Source: Candidatus Pelearchaeum maunauluense | GTDB lineage: Archaea > Thermoproteota > Nitrososphaeria_A > Caldarchaeales > Caldarchaeaceae | NCBI GenBank assembly: GCA_030059675.1 | Contig: JANVYQ010000003.1 | Span: forward strand, 35,547-99,546 | Direction of reading: 5' to 3' | Length of the DNA stretch: 64,000 nucleotides | In this document: piece by piece, positions 13,548-62,042 of the stretch | How positions within the stretch are numbered: position 1 is the stretch's first letter | Layout of the letters: every line of letters starts with the position of its first letter | Notes under the pieces: generated by a model | The model's database searches: none | Seen by the model: the letters and a program-made list of their open reading frames with translations, nothing else | Told to the model about the DNA's origin: nothing | Made by a program: the position numbers and the translations under genes

Positions 13548-15473
13548 TTGATTAGTCCTATGCCCAGCGTAATCTTGGGTGAGTCTGGTAAGTCTGATTT
13601 TCTGATGGGAAACGAGGCAATAGCACGGGGAGCTTTGGAGGCAGGTGTCGCTGTCGCTGCAGGTTATCCTGGAACGCCTTCATCCGAGATAATAGATACG
13701 TTGCTGGAGGTAGCTGAGGAGTTTGGGATTTACGTAGAGTGGTCTGTTAATGAGAAGGTCGCTCTAGAGATAGCTCTCGCGGCAAGTTTCTGCTGGGCTA
13801 GGTCGCTCTGCGCTATGAAGCACGTAGGCCTAAACGTTGCCCACGACGCTCTAGTGAATGCCTGCTACATAGGAGCGCGAGGAGGCTTCGTAATAGTCTC
13901 CGCGGAAGACCCTGGAGCATGGAGCTCGCAGAACGAGCAGGACAACAGATACATAGCCATGCAGGCCTACATGCCAGTCTTTGAGCCCTCAGACCCGCAG
14001 GAAGCAAAAGACATGATCGTCTATGCTTATGACTTCTCTGAGCAGCTGAATACTCCAGTCCTGCTCAGAACCGTGACGTGCGTAAGTCATTCTACGGGGA
14101 GTTTTGTCTTCGGCGATATCGTAAAGCCTGAAAGGCGGGTATATTTTGAGAAGCGGCCAGACTTGCTCATATACGATTCCGCCGGAGCTCGTAGGAATCG
14201 TCTAGCATTAATTAAACGATTCGAGAAAGTGCGGGAGGCAGTAAATAGCGTCCCCTTCAATAAGATGATGTTAAACGATGGCAGTGTGGGGGTTATTGTT
14301 TCAGGGGTAGCATACCGCTATGTGATGGAAGCTCTCAAAATTCTAGACAGAAAGGATAAAGTCTCTCTTCTGAAGATAGGTACACACTATCCCCCTCCAA
14401 GGGAAGCGATAGTAAGGTTCCTAGGCGCTGTTGATAGCGTCATGGTTGTTGAGGAGGTTGAGCCCATTCTAGAAACGCTTGTAAAGAGTATAGCTTATGA
14501 GGAGGATATAGATGTAGAGATTTGCGGACGGAGTATTCTTCCTAGAGGTGGCGAGCTAACCCCGCGCATAGTCTTGGAGGCGTTATCCAGCTTTCTAGAC
14601 ATAGATAATCCGCTTGATGCTGATGCGCTGGATAAGGCATGGGGCTACAGTAATAGCCTGCCACCACCTAGGCCGCCTACCCTGTGCCCAGGCTGCCCAC
14701 ACAGGGCAAGCTTCTACTCAATCTCCACAGTGGCTAAGAGGCTTGACAGGAATCCCAAGCTCTACGGGCTGGACCAACTATATGGGGAGAAAACAGAAAC
14801 AATACTGCCTGGCGATATAGGGTGCTACGGCCTGGCTTACCTACCGCCGTTCAAGGCAATAGACACGATAATCTGTATGGGCGCAGGCCTGGGGTTTGCC
14901 AACGGCCTAGCCAGGCTAGTAAAACAGCCAATAATAGTAAGCGTGGGAGATTCTACATTCTTCCACGCAACAATACCAGCTCTGATAAACGCCGTCTACA
15001 ACAACGCGCGGATAGTTCTGGTAGTGCTGGATAATGACGTAACAGCTATGGCTGGGGAGCAGCCCCATCCAGGTAGTAGCATCGTTTCCCAAGAGGGTAA
15101 GAGGCTTATAAAGATAGAGGACGTGGCCCGCGGATGTGGTGTGGAGCTGGTGCGCGTGGTCAATCCAGGAAACTTTGAAGAAACTCAAAAAGCGCTGGTG
15201 GATGCTCTGAAACATGATGGGCCGTCTGTCATAGTTCTTAGACGGCCTTGCGAGCTTCTACGAGTGCGTGAAAGGCTGCGCAAAGGAGAACCCCAGTCCC
15301 CATACATGGTGCTCACCGAGAAATGTACTGGCTGCATGATATGCATCAACCAGTTTGGATGCCCTGCTATAGTCAAAGCAGGTGATAAAGTGATGATAGA
15401 TTCCTCCATCTGTACTGGATGCGGGGACTGTGCTAAGGTCTGTGTTCCTAAGGCTATTGTGACGTGTGGTTAG
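13548..15473 (+). CDS. iorA: Indolepyruvate:ferredoxin oxidoreductase alpha subunit (IorA)
   Basis: GNEAIARGALEAGVAVAAGYPGTPSSEI TPP-enzyme N-terminus; C-terminal 2x[4Fe-4S] CTGCMICINQFGCP...CTGCGDCAKVC; 641 aa. Confidence 0.8.
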   Translation: MISPMPSVILGESGKSDFLMGNEAIARGALEAGVAVAAGYPGTPSSEIIDTLLEVAEEFGIYVEWSVNEKVALEIALAASFCWARSLCAMKHVGLNVAHDALVNACYIGARGGFVIVSAEDPGAWSSQNEQDNRYIAMQAYMPVFEPSDPQEAKDMIVYAYDFSEQLNTPVLLRTVTCVSHSTGSFVFGDIVKPERRVYFEKRPDLLIYDSAGARRNRLALIKRFEKVREAVNSVPFNKMMLNDGSVGVIVSGVAYRYVMEALKILDRKDKVSLLKIGTHYPPPREAIVRFLGAVDSVMVVEEVEPILETLVKSIAYEEDIDVEICGRSILPRGGELTPRIVLEALSSFLDIDNPLDADALDKAWGYSNSLPPPRPPTLCPGCPHRASFYSISTVAKRLDRNPKLYGLDQLYGEKTETILPGDIGCYGLAYLPPFKAIDTIICMGAGLGFANGLARLVKQPIIVSVGDSTFFHATIPALINAVYNNARIVLVVLDNDVTAMAGEQPHPGSSIVSQEGKRLIKIEDVARGCGVELVRVVNPGNFEETQKALVDALKHDGPSVIVLRRPCELLRVRERLRKGEPQSPYMVLTEKCTGCMICINQFGCPAIVKAGDKVMIDSSICTGCGDCAKVCVPKAIVTCG

Positions 15474-15477
15474 AGCT

Positions 15478-16593
15478 ATGAAGGTGGATAAAATCATCTC
15501 GAGTGTCGGTGGTCAGGGAACTATGCTGGCCGCCCGCGTGTTGGGCAGAGCCGCCTGCCGAGCAGGGGTAAACGCCCTAGGAGCAGAGCTTCTTGGACTC
15601 TCACAACGCGGCGGCTCGGTAGTAAGCCATATACGAATAGGAGACGATACATACTCACCAGTGATAATGGAAGGCACGGCAGAGGGAGCTGTGGCGGCCG
15701 TCCCCAAGCTAGCCGCCGCGGGAGTTCAGATAATAGTAGGCCCTCTAGCAACCATTGAGACCAAAGCCGTCTTGGATTTCCTGAACTCTAGGAAGATAGT
15801 TGCGATAAGCCCATCAAGCACGGGAACCGCCGCGCGTGTTAAGGATGACTTCGTATTCAGGATGCCGCCCCCAGACGTTTATCAAGCCCCAGCAATAGCT
15901 AGGATTGCGTGGGAGGTTGGTATAAGAAATCTGGTCATACTCGCTAGGAATGATGATTATGGTAAGGGGCTTGCCGATGGTGTTGAAGAGACGTTCATAC
16001 AGCTCGGTGGTAAGGTTACCAAGCTGCTCTACGACTATACTCAGCCAGACCTGAGCGCGGATGTTGAGCGAGCAAGCGCGGCTGTGGCTAACTATGGGGC
16101 TAACGAACAAACGGGCGTGGTCGTGATAGGGTTTGACGAGACGGTCAAAATATACGACAGGGCCAGGCTTGACCCCGTGCTATCTGAGGTTAGGTGGTTC
16201 GGTAACGACGCCGTAAAGAGGCCGACCTTCCTACCTCCCGAATCCAAGGAGGAGATAGCCGAGTTCCAGAGACAGGTACGCATACTCGGAACAGCCCCAG
16301 CGGTAGGGCCTGAAGACAACCTATTAGTCAAGAGATTCGTTGAGCGTTATAAGGAGAGATTTGGCGAGGAACCAAGCCTCTACTCATACTACGCATACGA
16401 CGCAGCCATGGTTGCGATGCATTACTACGGCGTAACTGGCTGGAAGCTGCTGGACGAGTATGGAGACAACGCTACTCCCCTATATGACATATGGACTGTA
16501 GTTAAACAGCCAGACGGAACATGGACCTTCAAGGTAGTCGGACTATACGACGGGGCTACGGGCTCCATCAAATTCTACGAAGAAGTTGGATGA
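15478..16593 (+). pseudogene. Chimeric ORF: first ~80 aa of IorB (indolepyruvate oxidoreductase beta) fused in frame to a LivK/LivJ-type branched-chain amino-acid binding protein that lacks its signal peptide and first ~90 residues
   Basis: N-terminus MKVDKIISSVGGQGTMLAARVLGRAA...SQRGGSVVSHIRIGDDTYSPVIMEG is IorB-like. From ...IIVGPLATIE...SPSSTG...FRMPPPD...ARNDDYGKGLADGVEETF...QPDLSADV onward it is type-1 periplasmic binding protein. No alternative frame continues IorB. Confidence 0.55.
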
Positions 16594-23333: not shown

Positions 23334-23999
23334 ATGGCTGCGCCAGCTCCATCCGCGGAAATATGGAATTCTCTATTCATGATGTATGTAACATCTGCAG
23401 TTGTAATCTCCGCAGTAGTGTTGGCAATTCTAGGATATTTCGTACTACGTTATAGACAGCCATCAAGCAGTCTAGCCGATGGTGGGCAGGACGAACCTGA
23501 GTTTAGAATAGGCGCGGAGCCCACTAGGGGTAGTGCTAAAGTTGCCATAGCTCTCAGCGTAATATTGGGGCTGCTCTTCGTTGGCCTCACGGCATCAACC
23601 TTCAGCGCTATGGAGTTCATGGAAGAAATACCCGAAGACAACCCAAATGCTCTGCACATTAAGGTAACAGCATTCCAGTGGGGATGGCAATTCACCTACC
23701 CCAACGGCCGGACAATAACAGGCGAGCTCAGAGTGCCCGTAAATACTCCTATAGTATTGGAGATAACCAGCAGGGATGTCTTTCATACATTCGCTATAGC
23801 TGCGTTCAAGGTTAAGAAAGACGCCATACCAGACAGAATTAACTTCGCATGGTTCGAGGCTAAAGAAGCAGGAGAATATAGGATACAATGCTACGAGCTC
23901 TGTGGAACAGGGCACGCCAAGATGATAGCAACTCTCCTAGCGATGGAGACGGAGCAGTTTGAAGCGTGGTATGGTAAGTTGAGTGAGGAGAAGGGGTGA
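23334..23999 (+). CDS. Heme-copper oxidase subunit II (CuA-type)
   Basis: FQWGWQFTYPNG, ITSRDVFHTF, CYELCGTGHAKM CuA ligands. Confidence 0.85.
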   Translation: MAAPAPSAEIWNSLFMMYVTSAVVISAVVLAILGYFVLRYRQPSSSLADGGQDEPEFRIGAEPTRGSAKVAIALSVILGLLFVGLTASTFSAMEFMEEIPEDNPNALHIKVTAFQWGWQFTYPNGRTITGELRVPVNTPIVLEITSRDVFHTFAIAAFKVKKDAIPDRINFAWFEAKEAGEYRIQCYELCGTGHAKMIATLLAMETEQFEAWYGKLSEEKG

Positions 24000-24005
24000 T
24001 TATGG

Positions 24006-26459
24006 GTGGCTCATGCAAACAATAAACCAAACCCACTTGTAGTCTGGCTTTTTACAACAAACCATAAAAACGTGGGAATACTCTACCTAGTGACATCCCT
24101 CTACTTCCTTGTGGTTGCTGGTATTCTAGCTCTCACGTTTAGGATGCAGCTGAGCGCGCCCAACATGGTATTCCTCGCAGCAGACTCTTACAACCAAGCG
24201 GTTACGCTGCATGGTCTCTTCATGCTTCTCTGGGTAACCACGCCGCTGGCCGCTGCTTTTGCCAACTACGTGGTTCCAATCCAGATAGGCGCTAAGGATA
24301 TGGCGTTCCCGCGCCTTAACGCGCTGAGCTACTGGCTCTACCTAGCAAGCGGCATAGTTGCGCTAAGCAGCTTCTTCGCCCCAGGAGGCACGGCTGACTG
24401 GGGATGGACAACATACGCGCCTCTAAACACGCTACAGTATAGCCCGCAAGCAGGAGGCTCGCTAATGGGCCTAGCAATACTGCTCCTACTCAGCTCCACG
24501 ATAGTAGCGACCTCAAACTTCATGGTAACAATATTCAGGCTACGCGCCCCTGGTATGAAGCTCTCATACCTCCCACTATTCTCAATATTCTGGCTGGTAA
24601 CCCAGTTCCTGCTACTATGGGCTTTCCCAGCCTTCGCCGCCCCCCTGCTCATGCTGGTCTCCGATAGGGTCCTTGGAACAGTATTCTTCACAGCAGCGGA
24701 AGGAGGAGCGCTACTCTGGGACCACCTACTATGGTTCTTCGGCCACCCAGAGGTTTACATACTCGTCCTACCAGGCCTGGCTATAGCTGGAGACGTCCTA
24801 GCAGTGTTTAGCCGAAGGCAGCTCTATGCCAAGAAAGTCATAATCATAGCAGTAAGCGTAGCCGCGTTCCTAAGCTACGTCGTATGGGTACATCACATGT
24901 TCATGACTGGCATACACCCAGGGCTAAGGGAGGTCTTCAACATAACGACAGAACTAATCTCAATACCCTTCGGAGCTATAATGCTCTCATATATCCTAAC
25001 CCTCTTTGGAGGCAGGATAAGGGCGACGACACCTTTCCTATTCGCTCTAGGCTCTGTGATACTCTTCATAATAGGTGGGGCCTCAGGCGTCTTCAACTCT
25101 TCGGTAGCCCTTGACGTGGGGATGAGAGGAACCTTCTGGGTGGTAGGGCACTTTCACTACACCATAGTGGGCGGCGGGATAACTGGCCTGATAGCTGGAC
25201 TATACTACTGGTGGCCGAAGATGACTGGAAGAATGTTCAGCGAAAAACTGGGCAAACTACACTTCGCAATCTACATGATAGGCTTCAACCTACTCTACTT
25301 CCCGATGCACCTACTCTACGACATGCCGAGAAGAATATTCTTCTACGACGCCACAACGGGCTGGGGCCCGATAAACATGCTCATAACCATGGGCTCCTGG
25401 ATCTTCGCGTCATCATTCATAATACTGTTCATAAACCTCATCAACAGCCTTCGCCATGGCCCTAAGGTGGGCGACGACCCGTGGGGAGGTGCCAACTACT
25501 CGCTTGAGTGGAACGTTCCTTCTCCGCCTCCAGAGTTCAACTTCCCGAAAGGCGTTCCGGTGATAACCGCGCAGGGCCTTGAGTTTAGGCAGCCTTGGGA
25601 GATTAAGATGGGCATAACAACAACTGGCGGCCAGCAGCTATACGGCACCACAGCCCTCCCTACAAACGGCGGGAGCCATGTGGCTGAGCACGGCGAGGAG
25701 CATGGGCCGCATCTAAGCCCATGGCCCTTCATACTCTCAATAGGTGTTGCACTAACCATGATCGGCCTGGTGTTTGGAGTGCCTCTACTGCTGCAGGGAG
25801 TGGTGATATTCATCGCCTCCATAGTGGGCTGGGCTTGGGAGGATGTTAAAGAGAAGTTCCACGTAGCTATTGAAGCGCTGGGCGAGAAGTGGCCATTTGA
25901 CAGGGTTGAGAACGTGCCCCTAGGGATGTGGTTCTTCCTCTTCGGTGAGGTGGCGCTCTTCGGCCCGCTCTTCGCAGCCTACTTCTTCGTCCGCGCCAAC
26001 AGCGCCTACACAGGCTTCGCGTGGCCTCTGCCAGGTCAGATACATAGCACAGTCATGGGAGCAATCTCCACAATAATCCTACTAACAAGCGGCCTCGCAA
26101 CATCACTGGCGCTAGTGGCGATAAAGAACAACAACCAGCGCGGCCTCAAGGCAGGGCTCCTCACAGCATTCATACTAGGCCTAGCCGTGCTGTTCATAGA
26201 GGGATTCCAGTGGGCTGAGCTCTTCGCAGAGGGCTACACGTTCGGAACAGACATAGCGGCCAGCATCTACTACCTAATAACGGGCATCCACGGTGCGCAT
26301 ATACTGGCTGGCCTGCTGATAATAATCTACCTACTGGCAAAAGCCTACAAGGGAGGCTACAACGCGGAGAAGCACATGGGCGTATATGCATTCGCCATAT
26401 ACTGGGGCTTCGTGGTGGGCGTATGGCTATTCACGTTCCCACTATTCTACCTAATATGA
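24006..26459 (+). CDS. Heme-copper oxidase subunit I fused to subunit III (SoxM/AoxB-like)
   Basis: GHPEVYILVLPGLA, 817 aa, C-terminal ...HGAHILAGLLII... subunit-III-like block. Confidence 0.9.
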   Translation: MAHANNKPNPLVVWLFTTNHKNVGILYLVTSLYFLVVAGILALTFRMQLSAPNMVFLAADSYNQAVTLHGLFMLLWVTTPLAAAFANYVVPIQIGAKDMAFPRLNALSYWLYLASGIVALSSFFAPGGTADWGWTTYAPLNTLQYSPQAGGSLMGLAILLLLSSTIVATSNFMVTIFRLRAPGMKLSYLPLFSIFWLVTQFLLLWAFPAFAAPLLMLVSDRVLGTVFFTAAEGGALLWDHLLWFFGHPEVYILVLPGLAIAGDVLAVFSRRQLYAKKVIIIAVSVAAFLSYVVWVHHMFMTGIHPGLREVFNITTELISIPFGAIMLSYILTLFGGRIRATTPFLFALGSVILFIIGGASGVFNSSVALDVGMRGTFWVVGHFHYTIVGGGITGLIAGLYYWWPKMTGRMFSEKLGKLHFAIYMIGFNLLYFPMHLLYDMPRRIFFYDATTGWGPINMLITMGSWIFASSFIILFINLINSLRHGPKVGDDPWGGANYSLEWNVPSPPPEFNFPKGVPVITAQGLEFRQPWEIKMGITTTGGQQLYGTTALPTNGGSHVAEHGEEHGPHLSPWPFILSIGVALTMIGLVFGVPLLLQGVVIFIASIVGWAWEDVKEKFHVAIEALGEKWPFDRVENVPLGMWFFLFGEVALFGPLFAAYFFVRANSAYTGFAWPLPGQIHSTVMGAISTIILLTSGLATSLALVAIKNNNQRGLKAGLLTAFILGLAVLFIEGFQWAELFAEGYTFGTDIAASIYYLITGIHGAHILAGLLIIIYLLAKAYKGGYNAEKHMGVYAFAIYWGFVVGVWLFTFPLFYLI

Positions 26460-36603: not shown

Positions 36604-37440
36604 CTACCATAGGAAGGCGCCTTCCCAAATTATGAGGAATAGCATGAGCCATATGAGGTCAACGAAGTTCCAGTAGAGGCTTACTGCATCAAGGAATCCA
36701 TGGCTCTTGGGTTTGAAGTGTCCCAGCTTGGCCCTCCCTGCGGCTATTGCGAGGACTATTATTCCCCCTACAACGTGGGCTCCGTGAACGCCTGTTAGTA
36801 TGTAGAAGCTGGAGCCGTAGAACCCGCTTGCTGGCGTGAAGCCAAGCTCGTAAATCAGGCGAGGCCACTCAATACCGAGCTTAAGCCCCATGAACACTAT
36901 ACCCAAAACCATAGTAGCTAGAATGCCCGCTAAAACGCCTCGGTTATTCCCCTTCTTAGCAGACCATACGGCCAGTTCTATGGTAACGCTGCTGGTTAGT
37001 AGTATTATCGTCTGGATTCGTGGGATGAAGTTTTCTAGGTGAGGAGCTCCTGGCGGAGGCCAGACAGGGAAGGTGGAGCGTATAAGGAAATAAGCTCCAA
37101 ATGCTGAAGCGAAGAACGCCGTCTCAGTGAGGAGGAAGAGCGCGGTTGGGAAGCCGACGCTCCCTACCTTCTCAGGCTCGGCGGGTATTGGCGTCTTCTG
37201 AAGCCTCTCAAAGAAGCTGGAAATCACGTGCTGCCACTGCCTAACCTCAAACACCACAAAAACCACTAACAAAGCGATGAAGTAGAAGACTAGAATTAAG
37301 CCTACTGTTGTGTATATCCCTTTAAGCAGGAGAATTAGGCCGGCTATCAGCGCTATGGTGTTCAGCCCAACGATAGCAGGCCAGATGCTCCCCTCCTCAT
37401 GTTCTTCATGAGCCGCGTGAGCGTTAGTTTCTGCGCTCAT
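36604..37440 (-). CDS. Stand-alone heme-copper oxidase subunit III homolog
   Basis: GVHGAHVVGG...YWNFVDLIWLMLFLIIW subunit-III signature. Confidence 0.7.
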   Translation of the reverse strand: MSAETNAHAAHEEHEEGSIWPAIVGLNTIALIAGLILLLKGIYTTVGLILVFYFIALLVVFVVFEVRQWQHVISSFFERLQKTPIPAEPEKVGSVGFPTALFLLTETAFFASAFGAYFLIRSTFPVWPPPGAPHLENFIPRIQTIILLTSSVTIELAVWSAKKGNNRGVLAGILATMVLGIVFMGLKLGIEWPRLIYELGFTPASGFYGSSFYILTGVHGAHVVGGIIVLAIAAGRAKLGHFKPKSHGFLDAVSLYWNFVDLIWLMLFLIIWEGAFLW

Positions 37441-46071: not shown

Positions 46072-47544
46072 ATGTCATTTGACTTTACACCCACGCTAAA
46101 CACATTGATAATACTAACTGTAATATCGCCCTTGTTCTCCTATGCTTCACGTAGGACGGGAGTCAGGCTGCTTGCCGATGCATACGCTATAATGGCGTTT
46201 GCGGCAAGCCTCATAATAGCTCTCACACAGTTCTCAGAAGTAGCTACTAACGGGCCTATAATTAGAGTAGCTGGGGAAGATCCCCTAACATCTACGGTAA
46301 TTTACGTGGACCAACTCGCCATGTATGTTGCGGGAATTTTCATATTCATAGGCCTGCTGGCTGCGATTTTCTCGGTTGGATATATTGAGGAGAGGAAGCC
46401 GGAGTATTATCCGCTTCTTCTCACCATGGTTACGGGAATGGTTGGGGTGGCGTTTGCAGGCGACCTCTTTCTACTCTTCATCTTCTGGGAGATGATGTCA
46501 ATCTCGTCATACTTGCTTGTGGCTTTCAGGTATAGAAACTGGGAGGCCGTAGAAGCTTCCTTCAAATATCTAATCATTAGTGCTGCTGGCGCGGCGGCTA
46601 TACTGTTTGCTATGTCCTTCCTCTATGGAATGGTGGGTACGCTTAATATAGCTATACTCGCAGAGACCCTAGCTACTGGCGTTGCCGCTGGCGAGTTCTG
46701 GAGCTACGTCATCATAGCTCTGCTAGTGGCAGGGTTCGGCGTCAACGCGGCCATGTTCCCATTCCATTCATGGCTTCCAGACGCGCACCCAGCAGCCCCA
46801 AGCCCCATAAGCGCTATGCTGTCGGGAGTTGTCATAAAAACGGGAATATACGCGCTATTCAGAATCATGACCTTCGTATTCCCAGCAACGCTGTTCGACT
46901 GGAGTATAGTTCTCGCCATCTTCGCCGTACTAACCATGACCGTGGGAAACCTTATGGCATTATTGCAAGAGGACATTAAGCGCCTCCTAGCGTTTAGCTC
47001 AATAGCCCACATAGGGTATATACTGCTTGCCCTATCGATATTCAGCGTAGGCGGCCTAGCTGGGGGGCTCCTTCATATATTAAACCACGCCAGCATGAAG
47101 GCGCTTCTCTTCCTTGCCGCGGGAGCTTTTATCCACGCCACTGCCACGCGAAACATAGACGAGCTAGCTGGAATCGGTAGGACGATGCCCATCTCAGCGG
47201 TGGCGTTCACGATAGGAGCATTCTCGCTAGCTGGAATACCAGGTCTAAACACATTTTGGAGCGAAGCCCAGATAATAATAGCTGGAATAGAAGCAGGCTT
47301 TACAGTATTCGTTGTGATAATGATAATTAACATATTGATAAGCGTAGCCTACTACCTACGGCTTGTTCAGACAATCTTCTTTAAGCCACCGTCGGAGAAA
47401 GCTATGAAGGCTCACGATGGAAGCGTCAGCATGATAACGCCATTGATACTCCTTTCAATACTCGCGATAGTAATCGGAGTTTATCCAGCACCATTCTTTA
47501 AAACGGTTTTCAACATAGCCCGAATACTCATAGCCAGCCCTTAA
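46072..47544 (+). CDS. nuoN: NuoN/MnhD-family proton-pumping antiporter-like subunit, isolated from other nuo genes
   Basis: 14 TM helices, FLLFIFWEMMSISSYLLVAF and other NuoN-type motifs. Confidence 0.65.
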   Translation: MSFDFTPTLNTLIILTVISPLFSYASRRTGVRLLADAYAIMAFAASLIIALTQFSEVATNGPIIRVAGEDPLTSTVIYVDQLAMYVAGIFIFIGLLAAIFSVGYIEERKPEYYPLLLTMVTGMVGVAFAGDLFLLFIFWEMMSISSYLLVAFRYRNWEAVEASFKYLIISAAGAAAILFAMSFLYGMVGTLNIAILAETLATGVAAGEFWSYVIIALLVAGFGVNAAMFPFHSWLPDAHPAAPSPISAMLSGVVIKTGIYALFRIMTFVFPATLFDWSIVLAIFAVLTMTVGNLMALLQEDIKRLLAFSSIAHIGYILLALSIFSVGGLAGGLLHILNHASMKALLFLAAGAFIHATATRNIDELAGIGRTMPISAVAFTIGAFSLAGIPGLNTFWSEAQIIIAGIEAGFTVFVVIMIINILISVAYYLRLVQTIFFKPPSEKAMKAHDGSVSMITPLILLSILAIVIGVYPAPFFKTVFNIARILIASP

Positions 47545-47606
47545 AATTATCCCTCTCACGTTTTTAAGATACTTCCACCTTACATACAATAGACAGGTGA
47601 CGCATA

Positions 47607-48731
47607 TTGCCGCGGCAAACAAAGAAGAAGGAACAGGAAGACGGGAAAAAACAATACTCGGTACTAAAGGTACGTGAAGAAATAGTTGGAAAGCTCAAGA
47701 AATTGGGAGAACGTGTGCTCTCGTATCTGGAGCGTGGCGAGTTCCCAGAGATAGAGCTCCCCTCACGAACCACAACAAACATAGAATACAATAGCGAATT
47801 AAGACAATACGTGCTCGGCTCAAAGACGGTAACGCGCACTACACGCAATATAAAGCATCTAAGACCATTTACACAGCTTATGTGGATGGCTATGTTCGCA
47901 AAGCAGCTTGTTGAAACGAGGAAAACCAGCACACTTAGGGATGCGTTTTATAACGCTATAGGTTTCGGAATAGATTTTGAAGACCAGCAGGAAAGCGATG
48001 AAACGGTAACTGAGTTGGAGACGTTGGTAGGAACTGTGCGGGAGGACTTTAACATATATCCCGAAGAACGTTCAAGCGTATTTGGGAGGCTAGTTATAGA
48101 ATATACCGTCCCAGGATATGAGGGTAGGCGCCTTGACCTAACTACAATACCTGACGGCGCTATGATTGGGCCCGCTATGACTACTGCAGAATTTGTTAGA
48201 TGCGATGCTGAGCAGGTATTTGTTGTTGAGAAGGGCGCTGTCTATCAGAGATTTTTAGAAGAGAACGTAAGCGATAGACATAAGGCTATAATAATTCATA
48301 CGGCTGGTCAGGCTCCCAGGGCTACGCGCAGGTTCGTCAGAAGACTTAACCAGGAGCTCAACCTTCCCGTCTATATCTTCACCGACGGAGACCCATGGGG
48401 TATGCATATTGCGAGTGTGTTGATTTACGGCTCGGCGTTGGCGGCTCACGTGAGGGAGCTCAACGTGCCAGACGCTATATGGGCAGGCCTATGGGCAAGC
48501 GACATCAGCAAATACAAACTACCAGCTATGCGGTTTAATGACGAAGACGCGAGGAGAATAGTCGAGTTGGAGCGCGACCCGCGATACGTCTCCGACCCGT
48601 GGAAGAGGGAGATAGCTGTCTTCAAGAAGATCCAAAGGAAGGCGGAGCTTGAGGCCTTGAGCCGCTATGGACTGGAATACATAGTCACAGATTACCTGCC
48701 AGAAAAGCTGGCCGAGGTGACAAAAAGATAA
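47607..48731 (+). CDS. top6A: DNA topoisomerase VI subunit A (Spo11 family)
   Basis: 5Y-CAP STLRDAFYNA, Toprim VVEKGAVYQRF and FTDGDPWG; TTG start. Confidence 0.85.
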   Translation: MPRQTKKKEQEDGKKQYSVLKVREEIVGKLKKLGERVLSYLERGEFPEIELPSRTTTNIEYNSELRQYVLGSKTVTRTTRNIKHLRPFTQLMWMAMFAKQLVETRKTSTLRDAFYNAIGFGIDFEDQQESDETVTELETLVGTVREDFNIYPEERSSVFGRLVIEYTVPGYEGRRLDLTTIPDGAMIGPAMTTAEFVRCDAEQVFVVEKGAVYQRFLEENVSDRHKAIIIHTAGQAPRATRRFVRRLNQELNLPVYIFTDGDPWGMHIASVLIYGSALAAHVRELNVPDAIWAGLWASDISKYKLPAMRFNDEDARRIVELERDPRYVSDPWKREIAVFKKIQRKAELEALSRYGLEYIVTDYLPEKLAEVTKR

Positions 48732-48777
48732 CTGTAAGCATCAGGAAGATACATATACAGAGAGGGCGGGCTCTTAA

Positions 48778-49563
48778 TTGCTGAAACTCATAGAAGGCGC
48801 TCCCGCAATAACCCTTGACAAGCCCAAAAGGACACTAGTAGTCTCTGATCTTCACCTAGGCTTTGAGGAGGAACTGCTGGCTCAGGGGATTAAGGTTCCG
48901 CCACAGAGCTGGAGGATAATACAAAACATAGCGCAACTCGTTAAAAGAGTAGATGCAAGCCGTCTAATAATCTTAGGTGATGTGAAACATCAGTTTACAG
49001 GACCTTCTAGGCTTGAATGGAGGATGCTTCCTCGTCTTTTTGATGAGCTATGCGCGGTAGTTAAAGAGATTATGATTCTTCCTGGAAATCATGATGGTGG
49101 GATAAGGAAAATATTGAGTGATAAAGTCATCTTTTTACCCACACGGGGCTATTTCGTTAAGGAGGAAAAAATCGGGCTAGTTCATGGGCATGTATGGCCC
49201 TCTAAACAGCTTCTTGACGCTGAGATAATAATCGCGGGACATTTGCACCCGTTTATAGCCTTTCACGGAGAGGCTGGGACTGTTAAAAGACGCGTCTGGC
49301 TTAGAATGAGAGGCAGCAAAGCCGCGCTAGCTGAGAAGGTACTCAAGAAACCAGTAAAAAGATACCGTGGAGAGATTACGTTGCTCATAATGCCCAGCTT
49401 TAATGACCTACTCTCAGGAACTACGGTAACGAACATTGAGGAGATAAGCAGAGGCCATGGACCTCTCCTCAGGTCTGGTATCTTCGACTTAGCCAGGGCT
49501 GAGGTTATAACTATAGATGGGGCTAGTCTTGGTTGTTTAGCATCACTTGAGCTGGAGGCATAA
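48778..49563 (+). CDS. Calcineurin-like metallophosphoesterase (ICC-type, COG1407-like)
   Basis: VVSDLHLG, ILGDV, GNHD, VHGH motifs. Confidence 0.7.
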   Translation: MLKLIEGAPAITLDKPKRTLVVSDLHLGFEEELLAQGIKVPPQSWRIIQNIAQLVKRVDASRLIILGDVKHQFTGPSRLEWRMLPRLFDELCAVVKEIMILPGNHDGGIRKILSDKVIFLPTRGYFVKEEKIGLVHGHVWPSKQLLDAEIIIAGHLHPFIAFHGEAGTVKRRVWLRMRGSKAALAEKVLKKPVKRYRGEITLLIMPSFNDLLSGTTVTNIEEISRGHGPLLRSGIFDLARAEVITIDGASLGCLASLELEA

Positions 49564-49566
49564 GAC

Positions 49567-49917
49567 TTGAGCGACCCCGCGGAGACGCTTCAACAACTCG
49601 CACGGGAATATCCATCTCTCTTTGACGAAGCATATCAGGCTGTTAGAGAGGGAAAGGTAAAGAAATACTGCTTCTATCCAAGCGGTAAGGTGGAGTGGAT
49701 AGTAGTAGGGAGAAACCGCGACTACCTCATACTCCCAGAAGCCAACTACTGTAGTTGTGAAGATTTCTTCTTCCGCGTACTAAGCCAAGAAAAACCCATG
49801 TGCTACCACATACTGGCCGTCAGAATAGCAACGCTAACAGGCAGATACGAGGAAATACAAGAAGCAGACCACTGGCGTAGAAGACTGATAAAAGAATGGA
49901 TACCCAGAGAGGAATAA
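49567..49917 (+). CDS. Small SWIM zinc-finger protein
   Basis: YCSCEDFFFRVLSQEKPMCYHIL = CxCx15CxH SWIM signature; 3-nt gap after the phosphoesterase. Confidence 0.5.
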   Translation: MSDPAETLQQLAREYPSLFDEAYQAVREGKVKKYCFYPSGKVEWIVVGRNRDYLILPEANYCSCEDFFFRVLSQEKPMCYHILAVRIATLTGRYEEIQEADHWRRRLIKEWIPREE

Positions 49918-49952: not shown

Positions 49953-50065
49953 GCCGGGGTCGGGTAGTCCGGCTAGCTCGCCGGCCTCGAGATCCGCTCT
50001 ATTAAGCTGGTCAGGATAGCCGGTGGCCTTCTCGGGCCGCGTGGGTTCAAATCCCACCCCCGGCG
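49953..50065 (+). tRNA. tRNA-Ser (anticodon CGA), type II with 17-nt variable arm and a 26-nt intron at the canonical 37/38 position (about 49992..50017)
   Basis: Acceptor GCCGGGG/CCCCGGC, G73, D-arm GGGT-AGTCCGGCTA-GCTC (A14, G18G19, A21), anticodon stem CCGGC/GCCGG flanking CTCGAG-intron-A, T-arm GTGGGTTCAAATCCCAC. Length 113 = 87 + 26. Confidence 0.75.
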
Positions 50066-61004: not shown

Positions 61005-62042
61005 ATGCCACTAACAGCTCAAATCCTTCCTCCACCAATCGAGCAGCTCATAAACTTCATCGCAAGTGACGCGTTTGTTAAAGCAGTTATATTTCCAGGC
61101 GTCATATTTGTATCAGTCTTTGGGCTTTTTACTGTCTGGTATGAGAGAAAGTTGCTGGCGCGTGTGATGTTGCGTATAGGTCCTCTGCATGTCGGTAAGT
61201 ATGCTGGTCTTCTGCAAGTTGTAGCGGATACTGTAAAGTTCCTAGCCAAAGAGTATATTGTCCCAGAAACTGCTAGACGCCGTTTATTCGTACTAATGCC
61301 GATGCTCGGCGTGGTTATTAATGCGCTTCTATTTGCATTCCTCCCCTTCGGCCCTATGTGGCTCATATTCCCATCAGACATAAGCATACTCCTCTTCTTC
61401 GTCTTAGTGGCTATCTCTCCTCTACCGCTCATACTGGCTGGCTGGGCGTCTGGAAACAAATACAGCCTGATAGGCATCGTTAGATTCGCCTTCCAGATAT
61501 TCGCATACGAGATACCGTTGTTCCTAGCTCTTACTGGTGTTATCGTGATGGCTCGTTCATTTGATATAGTTAAGATAGTTGAAGCCCAAGCATCCATGCC
61601 GTTCATCGTACCGCAGATAATTGGGTTCTTGGCTTTCTTCATAACCTTGGTGAGCGAAGTAGAGCGGATCCCCTTTGATATGCCAACAGCCGAGCAGGAG
61701 CTTGTAGAGGGATGGATGGTGGAATTCTCCTCCTATGGATTCTTAATGCTTCAGTTAGCAAATTACCTAAAGCTAGACGCGCTAGTAGTACTAACGGCCC
61801 TCCTATACCTAGGTGGGTGGTACGGGCCAGCCATACCTGGAATACCAGACTTCATACTAGCTCCCCTCTGGGTTCTCCTAAAATCCCTAGTCATACTAGC
61901 AGCCATACTCCTCCTAAGAGGAACTTATCCACGGATAACGATTAAGAAAATATTAGACCTGGGTTGGCGGGTTCTCATACCGATGACGTTGCTAAACCTG
62001 CTCATAGTAAGTGTTATTATGACTATTCCCCAGCTCCTCTAA
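61005..62042 (+). CDS. nuoH: NADH-quinone oxidoreductase subunit H
   Basis: WYERKLLARVMLRIGPLHVGKYAGLLQVVADTVKFLAKEYIVPE. Confidence 0.8.
   Translation: MPLTAQILPPPIEQLINFIASDAFVKAVIFPGVIFVSVFGLFTVWYERKLLARVMLRIGPLHVGKYAGLLQVVADTVKFLAKEYIVPETARRRLFVLMPMLGVVINALLFAFLPFGPMWLIFPSDISILLFFVLVAISPLPLILAGWASGNKYSLIGIVRFAFQIFAYEIPLFLALTGVIVMARSFDIVKIVEAQASMPFIVPQIIGFLAFFITLVSEVERIPFDMPTAEQELVEGWMVEFSSYGFLMLQLANYLKLDALVVLTALLYLGGWYGPAIPGIPDFILAPLWVLLKSLVILAAILLLRGTYPRITIKKILDLGWRVLIPMTLLNLLIVSVIMTIPQLL

What the first reader, a model, noticed from the sequence alone, without database searches (positions are those of the whole stretch)
47607..49917. top6A without top6B, co-oriented with a Mre11-like ICC phosphoesterase and a SWIM zinc-finger protein
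Topo VI genes are usually adjacent (B then A). Here the Spo11-family A subunit follows an isolated nuoN-like gene and is followed, with gaps of 46 and 3 nt, by a calcineurin-type phosphoesterase and a small SWIM (CxCx15CxH) protein. A Spo11-like DNA-cleaving subunit next to a phosphoesterase echoes the eukaryotic Spo11/Mre11 pairing and could be a DNA-break processing module.
Basis: inference. Interest (0 to 1): 0.5.

Follow-up and report, generated by a model that had tools for sequence, protein, structure and literature searches.

The report
Topo VI-A operon with repair nuclease
In one order of hot-spring archaea, the DNA-cutting subunit gene of topoisomerase VI has left its usual partner gene and is fixed in an operon with a small DNA-repair nuclease and a zinc-finger protein that other archaea keep beside a repair helicase; this is a real, conserved gene-order variant made of known parts, with no evidence yet for a new break-processing machine.

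Summary
Window 47607-49917 encodes Top6A, a 261-aa metallophosphoesterase (PE) and a 116-aa SWIM protein, co-oriented with gaps of 46 and 3 nt. No Top6B lies in the 64-kb window.

The organism is a Caldarchaeales ('Aigarchaeota') archaeon, not a classical Thermoprotei.

The order nuoN/MrpD-like, Top6A, PE, SWIM is intact in every Caldarchaeales locus examined. That covers 12 species representatives plus further MAG and metagenome contigs. Genes often overlap by 4 nt, and flanking synteny is largely lost.

Three other lineages keep the canonical overlapping Top6B-Top6A pair.

PE and the SWIM gene form an independent, widespread pair: 55 of 71 non-Caldarchaeales loci have both, often beside the Lhr helicase, and none has Top6A nearby. 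The SWIM family looks like Shu2/SWS1, but that comparison used a sequence recalled from memory, so it is only a lead.

Best reading: a lineage-specific operon joining canonical Top6A to a relocated MPE-SWIM repair pair. A direct role in clearing Topo VI-DNA adducts is possible but unsupported. I could not locate Top6B in these genomes.

The parts
46072..47544 (+). NuoN/MrpD-like membrane subunit (Proton_antipo_M). It is the invariant upstream neighbour of the operon in Caldarchaeales and is probably a separate transcription unit.
   Evidence: Pfam PF00361 at 1.1e-71. NCBIfam best hits are MrpD-like and NuoN. It lies directly upstream and co-oriented in all 20 Caldarchaeales loci.
47561..47569 (+). 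TATA-box-like element (TTTTTAAGA) in the 62-nt spacer upstream of top6A. A GGTGA Shine-Dalgarno-like motif follows at 47596-47600.
   Evidence: Read from the sequence. TTTAAGA/TATAAGA-type elements sit 25-45 nt upstream of the Top6A start in 10 of 12 representative Caldarchaeales loci. Promoter function is inferred, not shown.
47607..48731 (+). top6A: the catalytic (DNA-cleaving) A subunit of topoisomerase VI, full length and intact.
   Evidence: Pfam TP6A_N plus Toprim. It aligns end to end with M. mazei Top6A 2q2e_A at 4.5e-58. Y115, E208, D260 and D262 are invariant in 120 homologues. dN/dS is 0.005.
48778..49563 (+). MPE/PdeM-clade binuclear metallophosphoesterase (TIGR00024/COG1407 family), a predicted Mn-dependent single-strand DNA endonuclease.
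49567..49917 (+). Small SWIM zinc-finger protein (CxCx14CxHxxA), the conserved partner gene of the phosphoesterase. Possibly Shu2/SWS1-like.
   Evidence: C62, C64, C79 and H81 are invariant and A84 is at least 90% conserved in 34 family members. Pfam SWIM is weak: 0.0024 here, and 14 of 34 members score E<=0.1. The gene lies next to PE in 55 of 71 non-Caldarchaeales loci and in all Caldarchaeales loci.
49953..50065 (+). Intron-containing tRNA (anticodon reads CGA, Ser) followed by T5. It marks the 3' boundary of the operon.
   Evidence: Rfam tRNA at 38.4 bits. The same tRNA lies downstream of the SWIM gene in L012, L013 and L015. ARAGORN missed it.

Best explanation
This is a Caldarchaeales-specific operon. 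In the ancestor of the order, top6A was separated from top6B and became fixed upstream of a pre-existing two-gene repair module. That module is an MPE/PdeM-type metallophosphoesterase plus a small SWIM zinc-finger protein, and in other archaea it sits beside the Lhr helicase.

Top6A most likely still works as the catalytic subunit of a canonical Topo VI, with a Top6B encoded elsewhere (inferred). The phosphoesterase is most likely a Mn-dependent single-strand DNA endonuclease like P. putida MPE. The SWIM protein is most likely its DNA- or protein-binding adaptor (both inferred from homology and gene linkage).

The three genes are read from one TATA-type promoter in front of top6A. Their stop and start codons overlap in most relatives, so they are co-expressed. 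The link is therefore co-regulation of DNA-metabolism genes, kept in place by tight packing, and not a dedicated break-making and break-processing machine.
For: - The gene order is intact in all 12 Caldarchaeales species representatives and in the other MAG and metagenome loci.
- 4-nt overlaps between genes are common in relatives.
- A conserved TATA-like element lies upstream of top6A, with no comparable spacer inside the operon.
- Flanking synteny is largely lost while the block is kept: 0 of 15 flanking genes are shared between the window and L008 or L013.
- Top6A has all catalytic residues. Its N-terminal region is as conserved, relative to the rest of the protein, as in lineages with an adjacent Top6B. 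Its dN/dS is 0.005.
- Top6A is 57-63% identical to bathyarchaeal Top6A, which pairs with Top6B.
- PE-SWIM(-Lhr) is a widespread neighbourhood without Top6A.
- The MPE-Lhr linkage is already described (PMC8301817).
- MPE is a single-strand DNA endonuclease (PMC7826289, abstract).
- Topo VI is near-ubiquitous in Archaea (PMC9348778).
Against: - Top6B was not located in any Caldarchaeales genome.
- Retention of the block while the flanks scramble could mean selection for a functional coupling stronger than co-regulation.
- No Lhr was seen within 10 kb in Caldarchaeales, so the module's usual helicase partner is unaccounted for.
- Promoter and operon structure are inferred from sequence only.
Confidence: 0.6

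Rival explanations
1. Direct functional coupling. The MPE-like nuclease and its SWIM partner act on Topo VI's own by-products. They would nick DNA next to trapped Top6A-5'-phosphotyrosyl adducts to release them. This would be functionally analogous to Mre11 complex/Sae2 acting on Spo11 or Top2 adducts, and co-expression would scale repair capacity with the enzyme that makes the lesions.
For: - The operon has been kept across a deep order while the flanks are shuffled.
- Overlapping codons suggest coupled expression.
- PE belongs to a nuclease clade of the same superfamily as Mre11/SbcD.
- MPE cuts single-strand DNA (PMC7826289).
- Spo11 adducts are removed endonucleolytically by MRX-Sae2 in eukaryotes (PMC12203943).
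Against: - The association arose once and is limited to one order. 0 of 71 PE loci elsewhere carry Top6A, and the Top6A loci of three other lineages carry no PE.
- The module's general partner is Lhr, not Topo VI.
- No biochemical or interaction data exist.
Confidence: 0.22
2. Spo11-like stand-alone break maker. This Top6A works without Top6B, together with the phosphoesterase and the SWIM protein, to make and process programmed double-strand breaks.
For: - There is no Top6B within the window or within 10 kb in any Caldarchaeales locus.
- SPO11 dimers can cut DNA without partners in vitro (abstract of PMC11922746).
- The SWIM protein may be related to SWS1, a recombination mediator (the comparison sequence was recalled from memory).
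Against: - Top6A is an extremely constrained, canonical orthologue: dN/dS 0.005 and full-length alignment to M. mazei Top6A, including the N-terminal region.
- These archaea need a type II topoisomerase, and Topo VI is the near-universal one (PMC9348778).
- No second Top6A type carrying a Caldarchaeales name was seen among the best 120 homologues.
Confidence: 0.04
3. A mobile or anti-phage defence module built around a Toprim nuclease, of the Wadjet JetD or Gabija type, with a phosphoesterase effector.
For: - Top6A's Toprim region hits JetD models in PADLOC at 1.1e-10.
- PE has a marginal NCBIfam hit to 'anti-phage phosphoesterase' at E 0.0086.
Against: - The JetD hit is the known remote Toprim homology and covers only part of the protein.
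- PE and SWIM have no PADLOC hits.
- There are no JetABC or other defence genes nearby.
- The locus is a universally present, single block among housekeeping genes in every Caldarchaeales genome sampled, under strong purifying selection.
- GC content shows no anomaly.
Confidence: 0.02

Closest known systems
Archaeal topoisomerase VI A subunit (Top6A; e.g. M. mazei 2Q2E, S. shibatae 2ZBK)
   Same: - Same two-domain architecture.
- Full-length alignment.
- Catalytic Tyr (Y115) and Toprim E208, D260 and D262 are present.
- 57-63% identity to bathyarchaeal Top6A that is paired with Top6B.
   Different: - The gene is not preceded by top6B.
- It heads an operon with two repair-type genes.
- The partner Top6B has not been located.
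Pseudomonas putida MPE / bacterial PdeM (ligase-associated DNA damage response endonuclease), in the Lhr-Core-ligase-MPE-exonuclease cluster
   Same: - Same metal-binding motifs.
- Both nuclease-specific histidines are conserved.
- Archaeal relatives also sit next to Lhr (PMC8301817).
   Different: - About 22% identity only, and below the NCBIfam cut-offs.
- It carries an extra conserved C-terminal region of about 70-80 residues.
- Here it is linked to Top6A and a SWIM protein, with no ligase, exonuclease or Lhr nearby.
Mre11/SbcD nucleases (and the eukaryotic Spo11-MRX relationship)
   Same: Same calcineurin-like phosphoesterase superfamily and catalytic core. The idea of a nuclease encoded beside a Spo11-family protein echoes Spo11 removal by MRX-Sae2.
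   Different: - There is no capping domain, no Rad50-binding region and no adjacent rad50.
- The family's usual genomic partner is Lhr.
Shu2/SWS1 (ZSWIM7) SWIM-domain recombination mediators
   Same: - The CxC...CxHxxA motif (PMC6316741).
- The family profile aligns over 119 columns with human ZSWIM7 at 98% hhalign probability. The N-terminal half alone gives 88.9% and the reversed control 0.45%.
   Different: - No Rad51/RadA paralogue was seen next to the gene.
- The archaeal partners by gene linkage are an MPE nuclease and the Lhr helicase.
- No confident structure is available (single-sequence model pLDDT 53.5).

Membership tests
Topoisomerase VI subunit A (Top6A/Spo11) | Winged-helix/CAP (TP6A_N) plus Toprim domain architecture | tested here: met
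   Pfam PF04406 at 1.1e-13 and PF21180 at 3.7e-51, both above gathering scores. Full-length alignment to 2q2e_A.
Topoisomerase VI subunit A (Top6A/Spo11) | Catalytic tyrosine and Toprim acidic residues (E, DxD) | tested here: met
   Y115 (LRDAFY), E208 (VVEKG) and D260/D262 (DGDPWG) are invariant in 120 homologues.
Topoisomerase VI subunit A (Top6A/Spo11) | A Top6B (GHKL ATPase plus transducer) partner encoded in the genome, typically immediately upstream | tested here: inconclusive
   Top6B is not in the 64-kb window or within 10 kb of Top6A in any Caldarchaeales locus. It is adjacent in Bathyarchaeia and two other lineages. A genome-wide search was not possible. The literature says Topo VI is near-ubiquitous.
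MPE/PdeM clade of binuclear metallophosphoesterases (TIGR00024/TIGR04123, COG1407) | Metallophosphoesterase motifs DxH, GD, GNH(D/E), H, GHxH | tested here: met
   D24, H26, G67, D68, G103, N104, H105, D106, H136, G137, H138, H155 and H157 are invariant in 22 homologues.
MPE/PdeM clade of binuclear metallophosphoesterases (TIGR00024/TIGR04123, COG1407) | The histidines needed specifically for DNA cleavage in P. putida MPE (His81, His113) | tested here: met
   H71 aligns with His81 and H105 with His113 in the phmmer alignment to 6nvp_A. H71 is at least 90% conserved and H105 is invariant. Their roles come from PMC7826289.
MPE/PdeM clade of binuclear metallophosphoesterases (TIGR00024/TIGR04123, COG1407) | Fold closest to MPE among solved structures | tested here: met
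   [not shown]
MPE/PdeM clade of binuclear metallophosphoesterases (TIGR00024/TIGR04123, COG1407) | Score above the curated NCBIfam cut-off | tested here: not met
   TIGR00024 scores 101.7 bits against a cut-off of 115.2. TIGR04123 scores 71.8 against 150. The protein is therefore a divergent member or sister group of the curated models.
MPE/PdeM clade of binuclear metallophosphoesterases (TIGR00024/TIGR04123, COG1407) | Genomic association with an Lhr-type helicase | tested here: not met
   There is no Lhr in the window or within 10 kb in Caldarchaeales. Lhr is present in 17 of 71 PE loci of other archaea.
MPE/PdeM clade of binuclear metallophosphoesterases (TIGR00024/TIGR04123, COG1407) | Mn-dependent single-strand DNA endonuclease activity | not testable with these tools
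   This needs biochemistry.
Mre11/SbcD | Nuclease domain plus capping domain and Rad50-binding region, with an adjacent rad50/sbcC | tested here: not met
   [not shown]
SWIM zinc finger (PF04434) | CxCxnCxH zinc-binding signature | tested here: met
   C62, C64, C79 and H81 are invariant in 34 family members.
SWIM zinc finger (PF04434) | Pfam gathering score | tested here: not met
   17.8 bits against 19.6. Only 14 of 34 members reach E<=0.1.
Shu2/SWS1 family | Extended motif CxC...CxHxxA and similarity beyond the zinc finger | tested here: inconclusive
   A84 is at least 90% conserved. hhalign gives 98% probability against a human ZSWIM7 sequence recalled from memory. That sequence could not be verified, the alanine is also common in other SWIM domains (own knowledge), and no reliable structure is available.
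Shu2/SWS1 family | Works with Rad51/RadA paralogues | not tested
   No RadA-like gene was noted in the neighbourhoods, and no dedicated search was made.
Wadjet JetD / Toprim defence nucleases | JetD architecture with JetABC partners | tested here: not met
   There is only a partial Toprim hit to JetD at 1.1e-10, over residues 171-347. No JetABC genes are present in the window.

The most novel reading that the evidence does not exclude
The operon could be a true functional unit. In that reading the Spo11-family cutter (Top6A), an Mre11-superfamily nuclease (MPE clade) and an SWS1/Shu2-like SWIM protein cooperate in making or clearing protein-linked DNA breaks. That would be an archaeal counterpart of the eukaryotic Spo11 / Mre11 / Shu-complex trio.

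More broadly, the small archaeal SWIM family would be the prokaryotic ancestor of Shu2/SWS1. Its original partners would then be an MPE nuclease and the Lhr helicase, rather than Rad51 paralogues.
Probability: 0.12. Interest if true: 0.75.

Novelty: new variant of a known kind. Interest (0 to 1): 0.4.

Why it matters
If the link is only regulatory, this is a tidy case of lineage-specific operon reshuffling of housekeeping DNA genes. It is also a warning that an 'orphan' top6A does not imply a Spo11-like function.

If the link is functional, it would name the first candidate archaeal factors dedicated to repairing topoisomerase VI cleavage complexes.

Separately, the MPE-SWIM(-Lhr) neighbourhood is seen across Bathyarchaeia, Nitrososphaeria, Odinarchaeota and Baldrarchaeota. 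It gives the poorly understood Lhr/MPE repair pathway a third conserved component. If the SWS1 resemblance is confirmed, it also ties a eukaryotic recombination mediator family to an archaeal nuclease-helicase system, which can be tested directly with recombinant proteins.

Tried and rejected
- **Exact look-up of the window's Top6A** found nothing. A 99% relative did work.

- **Finding a Caldarchaeales Top6B** did not succeed.
  - A homologue search with a bathyarchaeal Top6B returned only Bathyarchaeia.
  - A search of the 50%-identity cluster representatives gave 150 unnamed hits.
  - Cluster look-ups gave few names.
  - Two candidates, P0357 and P0360, turned out to have canonical Top6B-Top6A pairs in other lineages.
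  - One candidate, P0545, is a Top6B without an adjacent Top6A, but I could not assign its taxon. Ribosomal-protein cluster look-ups gave no names. Its tetranucleotide profile matches no Caldarchaeales locus. No genes are shared with the Caldarchaeales loci.
  - The single metagenome scan, run with P0545, returned only the same contig.

- **The first PE alignment** was too diverse for a pattern scan. A narrower one worked.

- **Literature.** Searches for a described SWIM-MPE-Lhr link, or for Top6B in Aigarchaeota, gave nothing specific. Godin 2015 and McClendon 2016 are not held.

- **Defence-system reading** rejected.

- **Bacterial-type promoter and terminator scan** was uninformative for an archaeon.
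Full report
**1. What is in the window**

The ORF list confirms four co-oriented genes on the + strand:

| Coordinates | Length | Product |
|---|---|---|
| 46072-47544 | 490 aa | NuoN/MrpD-like membrane protein |
| 47607-48731 | 374 aa | Top6A |
| 48778-49563 | 261 aa | calcineurin-type phosphoesterase ('PE' below) |
| 49567-49917 | 116 aa | Cys/His protein |

- Pfam gives Proton_antipo_M (1.1e-71), TP6A_N plus TOP6A-Spo11_Toprim (1.1e-13, 3.7e-51), Metallophos (2.3e-8) and a sub-threshold SWIM hit (0.0024).
- The zinc motif reads C62-x-C64-x14-C79-x-H81, which is x14 and not x15.
- Nothing in the 64-kb window is a Top6B. The large ORFs are other enzymes, and tblastn with a bathyarchaeal Top6B finds nothing.
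- GC content is unremarkable across the region.
- An intron-containing tRNA (Rfam 38.4 bits, anticodon CGA) sits 36 nt after the last gene and is followed by T5.

**2. Whose genome**

- The best Top6A homologues are named Ca. Caldarchaeum, Aigarchaeota, Caldarchaeales and archaeon HR01.
- The nearest species representative is a Ca. Pelearchaeum MAG, with 93% PE identity.
- The lineage is therefore Caldarchaeales ('Aigarchaeota'), not Thermoprotei in the narrow sense.

**3. Is the gene order conserved?**

Yes, across the whole order.

- Contexts fetched through Top6A relatives at 99%, 77%, 64% and 62% identity all show antiporter, Top6A, Metallophos, then a protein of about 110 aa.
- A scan of one genome per species with a PE alignment kept the 80 best loci.
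- My HMM scan of their ORFs shows Top6A-PE-SWIM in all 12 Caldarchaeales representatives (L012-L023). It shows the arrangement in none of the other 68 loci.
- The antiporter-like gene lies directly upstream in all 20 Caldarchaeales loci.
- Stop and start codons overlap in most of them, for example in L003 and L005.
- Flanking genes are largely different between sublineages. The window shares 0 of 15 flanking genes with L008 or L013, while the four-gene block is intact in 10 of 10 representatives.
- A TTTAAGA/TATAAGA-type element lies 25-45 nt upstream of the Top6A start in 10 of 12 representatives. In the window it is TTTTTAAGA at 47561-47569, with GGTGA at 47596-47600.
- I read this as a promoter for a Top6A-PE-SWIM transcript, with the antiporter gene as a separate unit. 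This is inference.
- Against the close relative L012, dN/dS is 0.005 for Top6A, 0.052 for PE and 0.094 for SWIM, so all three are functional genes.

**4. Top6A itself is canonical**

- It aligns end to end with M. mazei Top6A (2q2e_A, 4.5e-58), including the N-terminal segment.
- Y115, E208, D260 and D262 are invariant in 120 homologues.
- The N-terminal region is conserved to the same relative degree within Caldarchaeales (0.54 against 0.72-0.74 for the other domains) as within the bathyarchaeal group (0.57 against 0.77-0.78), which does have an adjacent Top6B.
- That fits a retained Top6B partner.
- Three other lineages keep the overlapping Top6B-Top6A pair: Bathyarchaeia L007, a 'Nitrososphaeria archaeon' group L092-L094, and a further unnamed lineage, L098-L101.

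**5. Where is Top6B?**

I could not find it.

- The homologue search with a bathyarchaeal Top6B returned only Bathyarchaeia.
- The cluster-representative search returned unnamed sequences.
- Of the three candidates whose contexts I could read, two had canonical pairs.
- The third (P0545, L095-L097) is a Top6B with no Top6A within 10 kb, but nothing ties it to Caldarchaeales.
- The literature states that Topo VI is missing only from Thermoplasmatales (PMC9348778).
- It also states that Topo VI is present in all thaumarchaeal genomes analysed; that paper treats Ca. C. subterraneum as a deep-branching thaumarchaeon (PMC4824112).
- 'Top6B elsewhere' is therefore an inference, not a result.

**6. 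The phosphoesterase is MPE-like, not Mre11-like**

- NCBIfam places it nearest TIGR00024 'SbcD_rel_arch' (4.8e-29) and PdeM (5.1e-20). Both scores are below the curated cut-offs.
- All metallophosphoesterase motifs are invariant in 22 homologues.
- H71 and H105 align with His81 and His113 of P. putida MPE. Those two histidines are required for DNA cleavage (PMC7826289, abstract).
- An alignment-based AlphaFold model is confident (pLDDT 92.6).
  - LpxH follows at 11.8 and Mre11 (9bi4_B) at 11.1.
  - YfcE scores 10.9, and other Mre11/SbcD chains score about 9-10.
- The archaeal protein has a conserved C-terminal extension that MPE lacks.

**7. PE and SWIM are a module of their own**

- The SWIM-type gene is recognisable next to PE far outside Caldarchaeales.
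- Of 71 non-Caldarchaeales PE loci, 55 carry it close by:
  - 31 have it downstream with one gene in between; that gene is HSP20-like in L009.
  - 7 have it immediately downstream.
  - 17 have it upstream and divergent.
- 17 loci carry an Lhr helicase, typically as Lhr-SWIM facing PE.
- The lineages include Bathyarchaeia, Nitrososphaerales, Odinarchaeota (L030) and Baldrarchaeota (L061).
- The MPE-Lhr neighbourhood in archaea and bacteria is already published (PMC8301817). I found no description of the SWIM partner.
- Each Caldarchaeales assembly appears once among the 80 best PE loci. This suggests the Lhr-type module was relocated, not duplicated (inference).

**8. What is the SWIM protein?**

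- In 34 family members, C62, C64, C79 and H81 are invariant and A84 is at least 90% conserved.
- That is the CxC...CxHxxA pattern used to define Shu2/SWS1 (PMC6316741).
- Pfam SWIM is weak: 14 of 34 members reach E<=0.1. No solved structure matches by sequence.
- A profile comparison with human ZSWIM7/SWS1 gives 98% probability over 119 columns. The N-terminal half alone gives 88.9%, and the reversed sequence gives 0.45%.
- The single-sequence structure model is too poor to use.

**9. Interpretation**

- The parts are known kinds. The arrangement is new only in that Top6A occupies the position next to an MPE-SWIM pair in one archaeal order.
- The association has a single origin and is absent from every other lineage sampled. 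Gene linkage therefore gives weak evidence for a shared function.
- The tight, long-lived operon gives good evidence for co-expression.
- My preferred reading (0.6) is a lineage-specific operon of a canonical Topo VI subunit with a relocated repair pair.
- A dedicated role in removing trapped Top6A-DNA adducts is plausible (0.22) but untested.
- A Top6B-independent, Spo11-like role is unlikely (0.04).
- A defence or mobile module is effectively excluded (0.02). PADLOC gives only the known Toprim-JetD remote hit.

**10. Verdict**

- Novelty: a new variant of a known kind.
- Interest: moderate (0.4). It comes mainly from the operon's strict conservation and from the possible SWS1-MPE-Lhr connection, which deserves a proper check.

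Noticed in passing
window 49953-50065 (+): A 113-nt tRNA (Rfam 38.4 bits). It has an insertion of about 30 nt after the anticodon loop, which I read as an intron, and a long variable arm. The anticodon reads CGA (Ser). ARAGORN did not report it. It overlaps the 3' end of the minus-strand DUF4349 ORF by 19 nt. The same tRNA follows the SWIM gene in L012, L013 and L015.
   Followed up: partly
L095:10001-11749, L096, L097 (ENA ERZ27262635 k141_92148; JGI Ga0256838_1000831): A 582-aa Top6B with no Top6A within 10 kb, the mirror image of the finding. Its context is a KH (PNO1-like) gene, a 1943-aa PA14-domain protein, Top6B, then a ribosomal-protein cluster. The taxon is unknown, and the tetranucleotide profile matches none of the other loci.
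   Followed up: partly
PE-SWIM-Lhr loci, e.g. L011:2178-6843, L055:5997-10795, L061:6184-10825, L030:5-1302: A conserved three-gene neighbourhood (Lhr helicase, small SWIM protein, MPE-like phosphoesterase) in Bathyarchaeia, Odinarchaeota, Baldrarchaeota and others. The SWIM family may be the archaeal counterpart of Shu2/SWS1. I found no paper describing the SWIM partner.
   Followed up: partly
window 46072-47544 and 61005-62042: Respiratory complex I-type genes are scattered, not in one nuo operon. A lone NuoN/MrpD-like gene is always glued upstream of top6A in Caldarchaeales, and a lone nuoH (NADHdh) lies 13 kb downstream. In L005, nuoJ/K-like genes lie about 4 kb away on the other strand.
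   Followed up: no
window 24006-26459 (+) and 36604-37440 (-): An 817-aa fusion of cytochrome oxidase subunits I and III (COX1 plus COX3), preceded by COX2 (23334-23999). A second, separate COX3 gene lies about 10 kb away.
   Followed up: no
L005:12518-14107 (+): In the P0025 lineage, a 16S rRNA gene (Rfam 1457 bits) starts 276 nt after the SWIM gene. The operon's downstream boundary is therefore an RNA gene in several sublineages: tRNA in some, rRNA here.
   Followed up: no
window 15466-16593 (+): The ORF combines a short pyruvate:ferredoxin oxidoreductase gamma-like N-terminus (POR, residues 15-83) with a periplasmic-binding-protein domain (Peripla_BP_6/ANF_receptor). This is either an odd fusion or an over-extended ORF start next to the 2-oxoacid oxidoreductase gene at 13548-15473.
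   Followed up: no
L074 (DASPWZ010000031.1): A contig labelled 'Candidatus Dormiibacterota bacterium' carries the archaeal-type Lhr-SWIM-PE neighbourhood, closely resembling the bathyarchaeal loci. It is probably a mis-binned archaeal contig.
   Followed up: no
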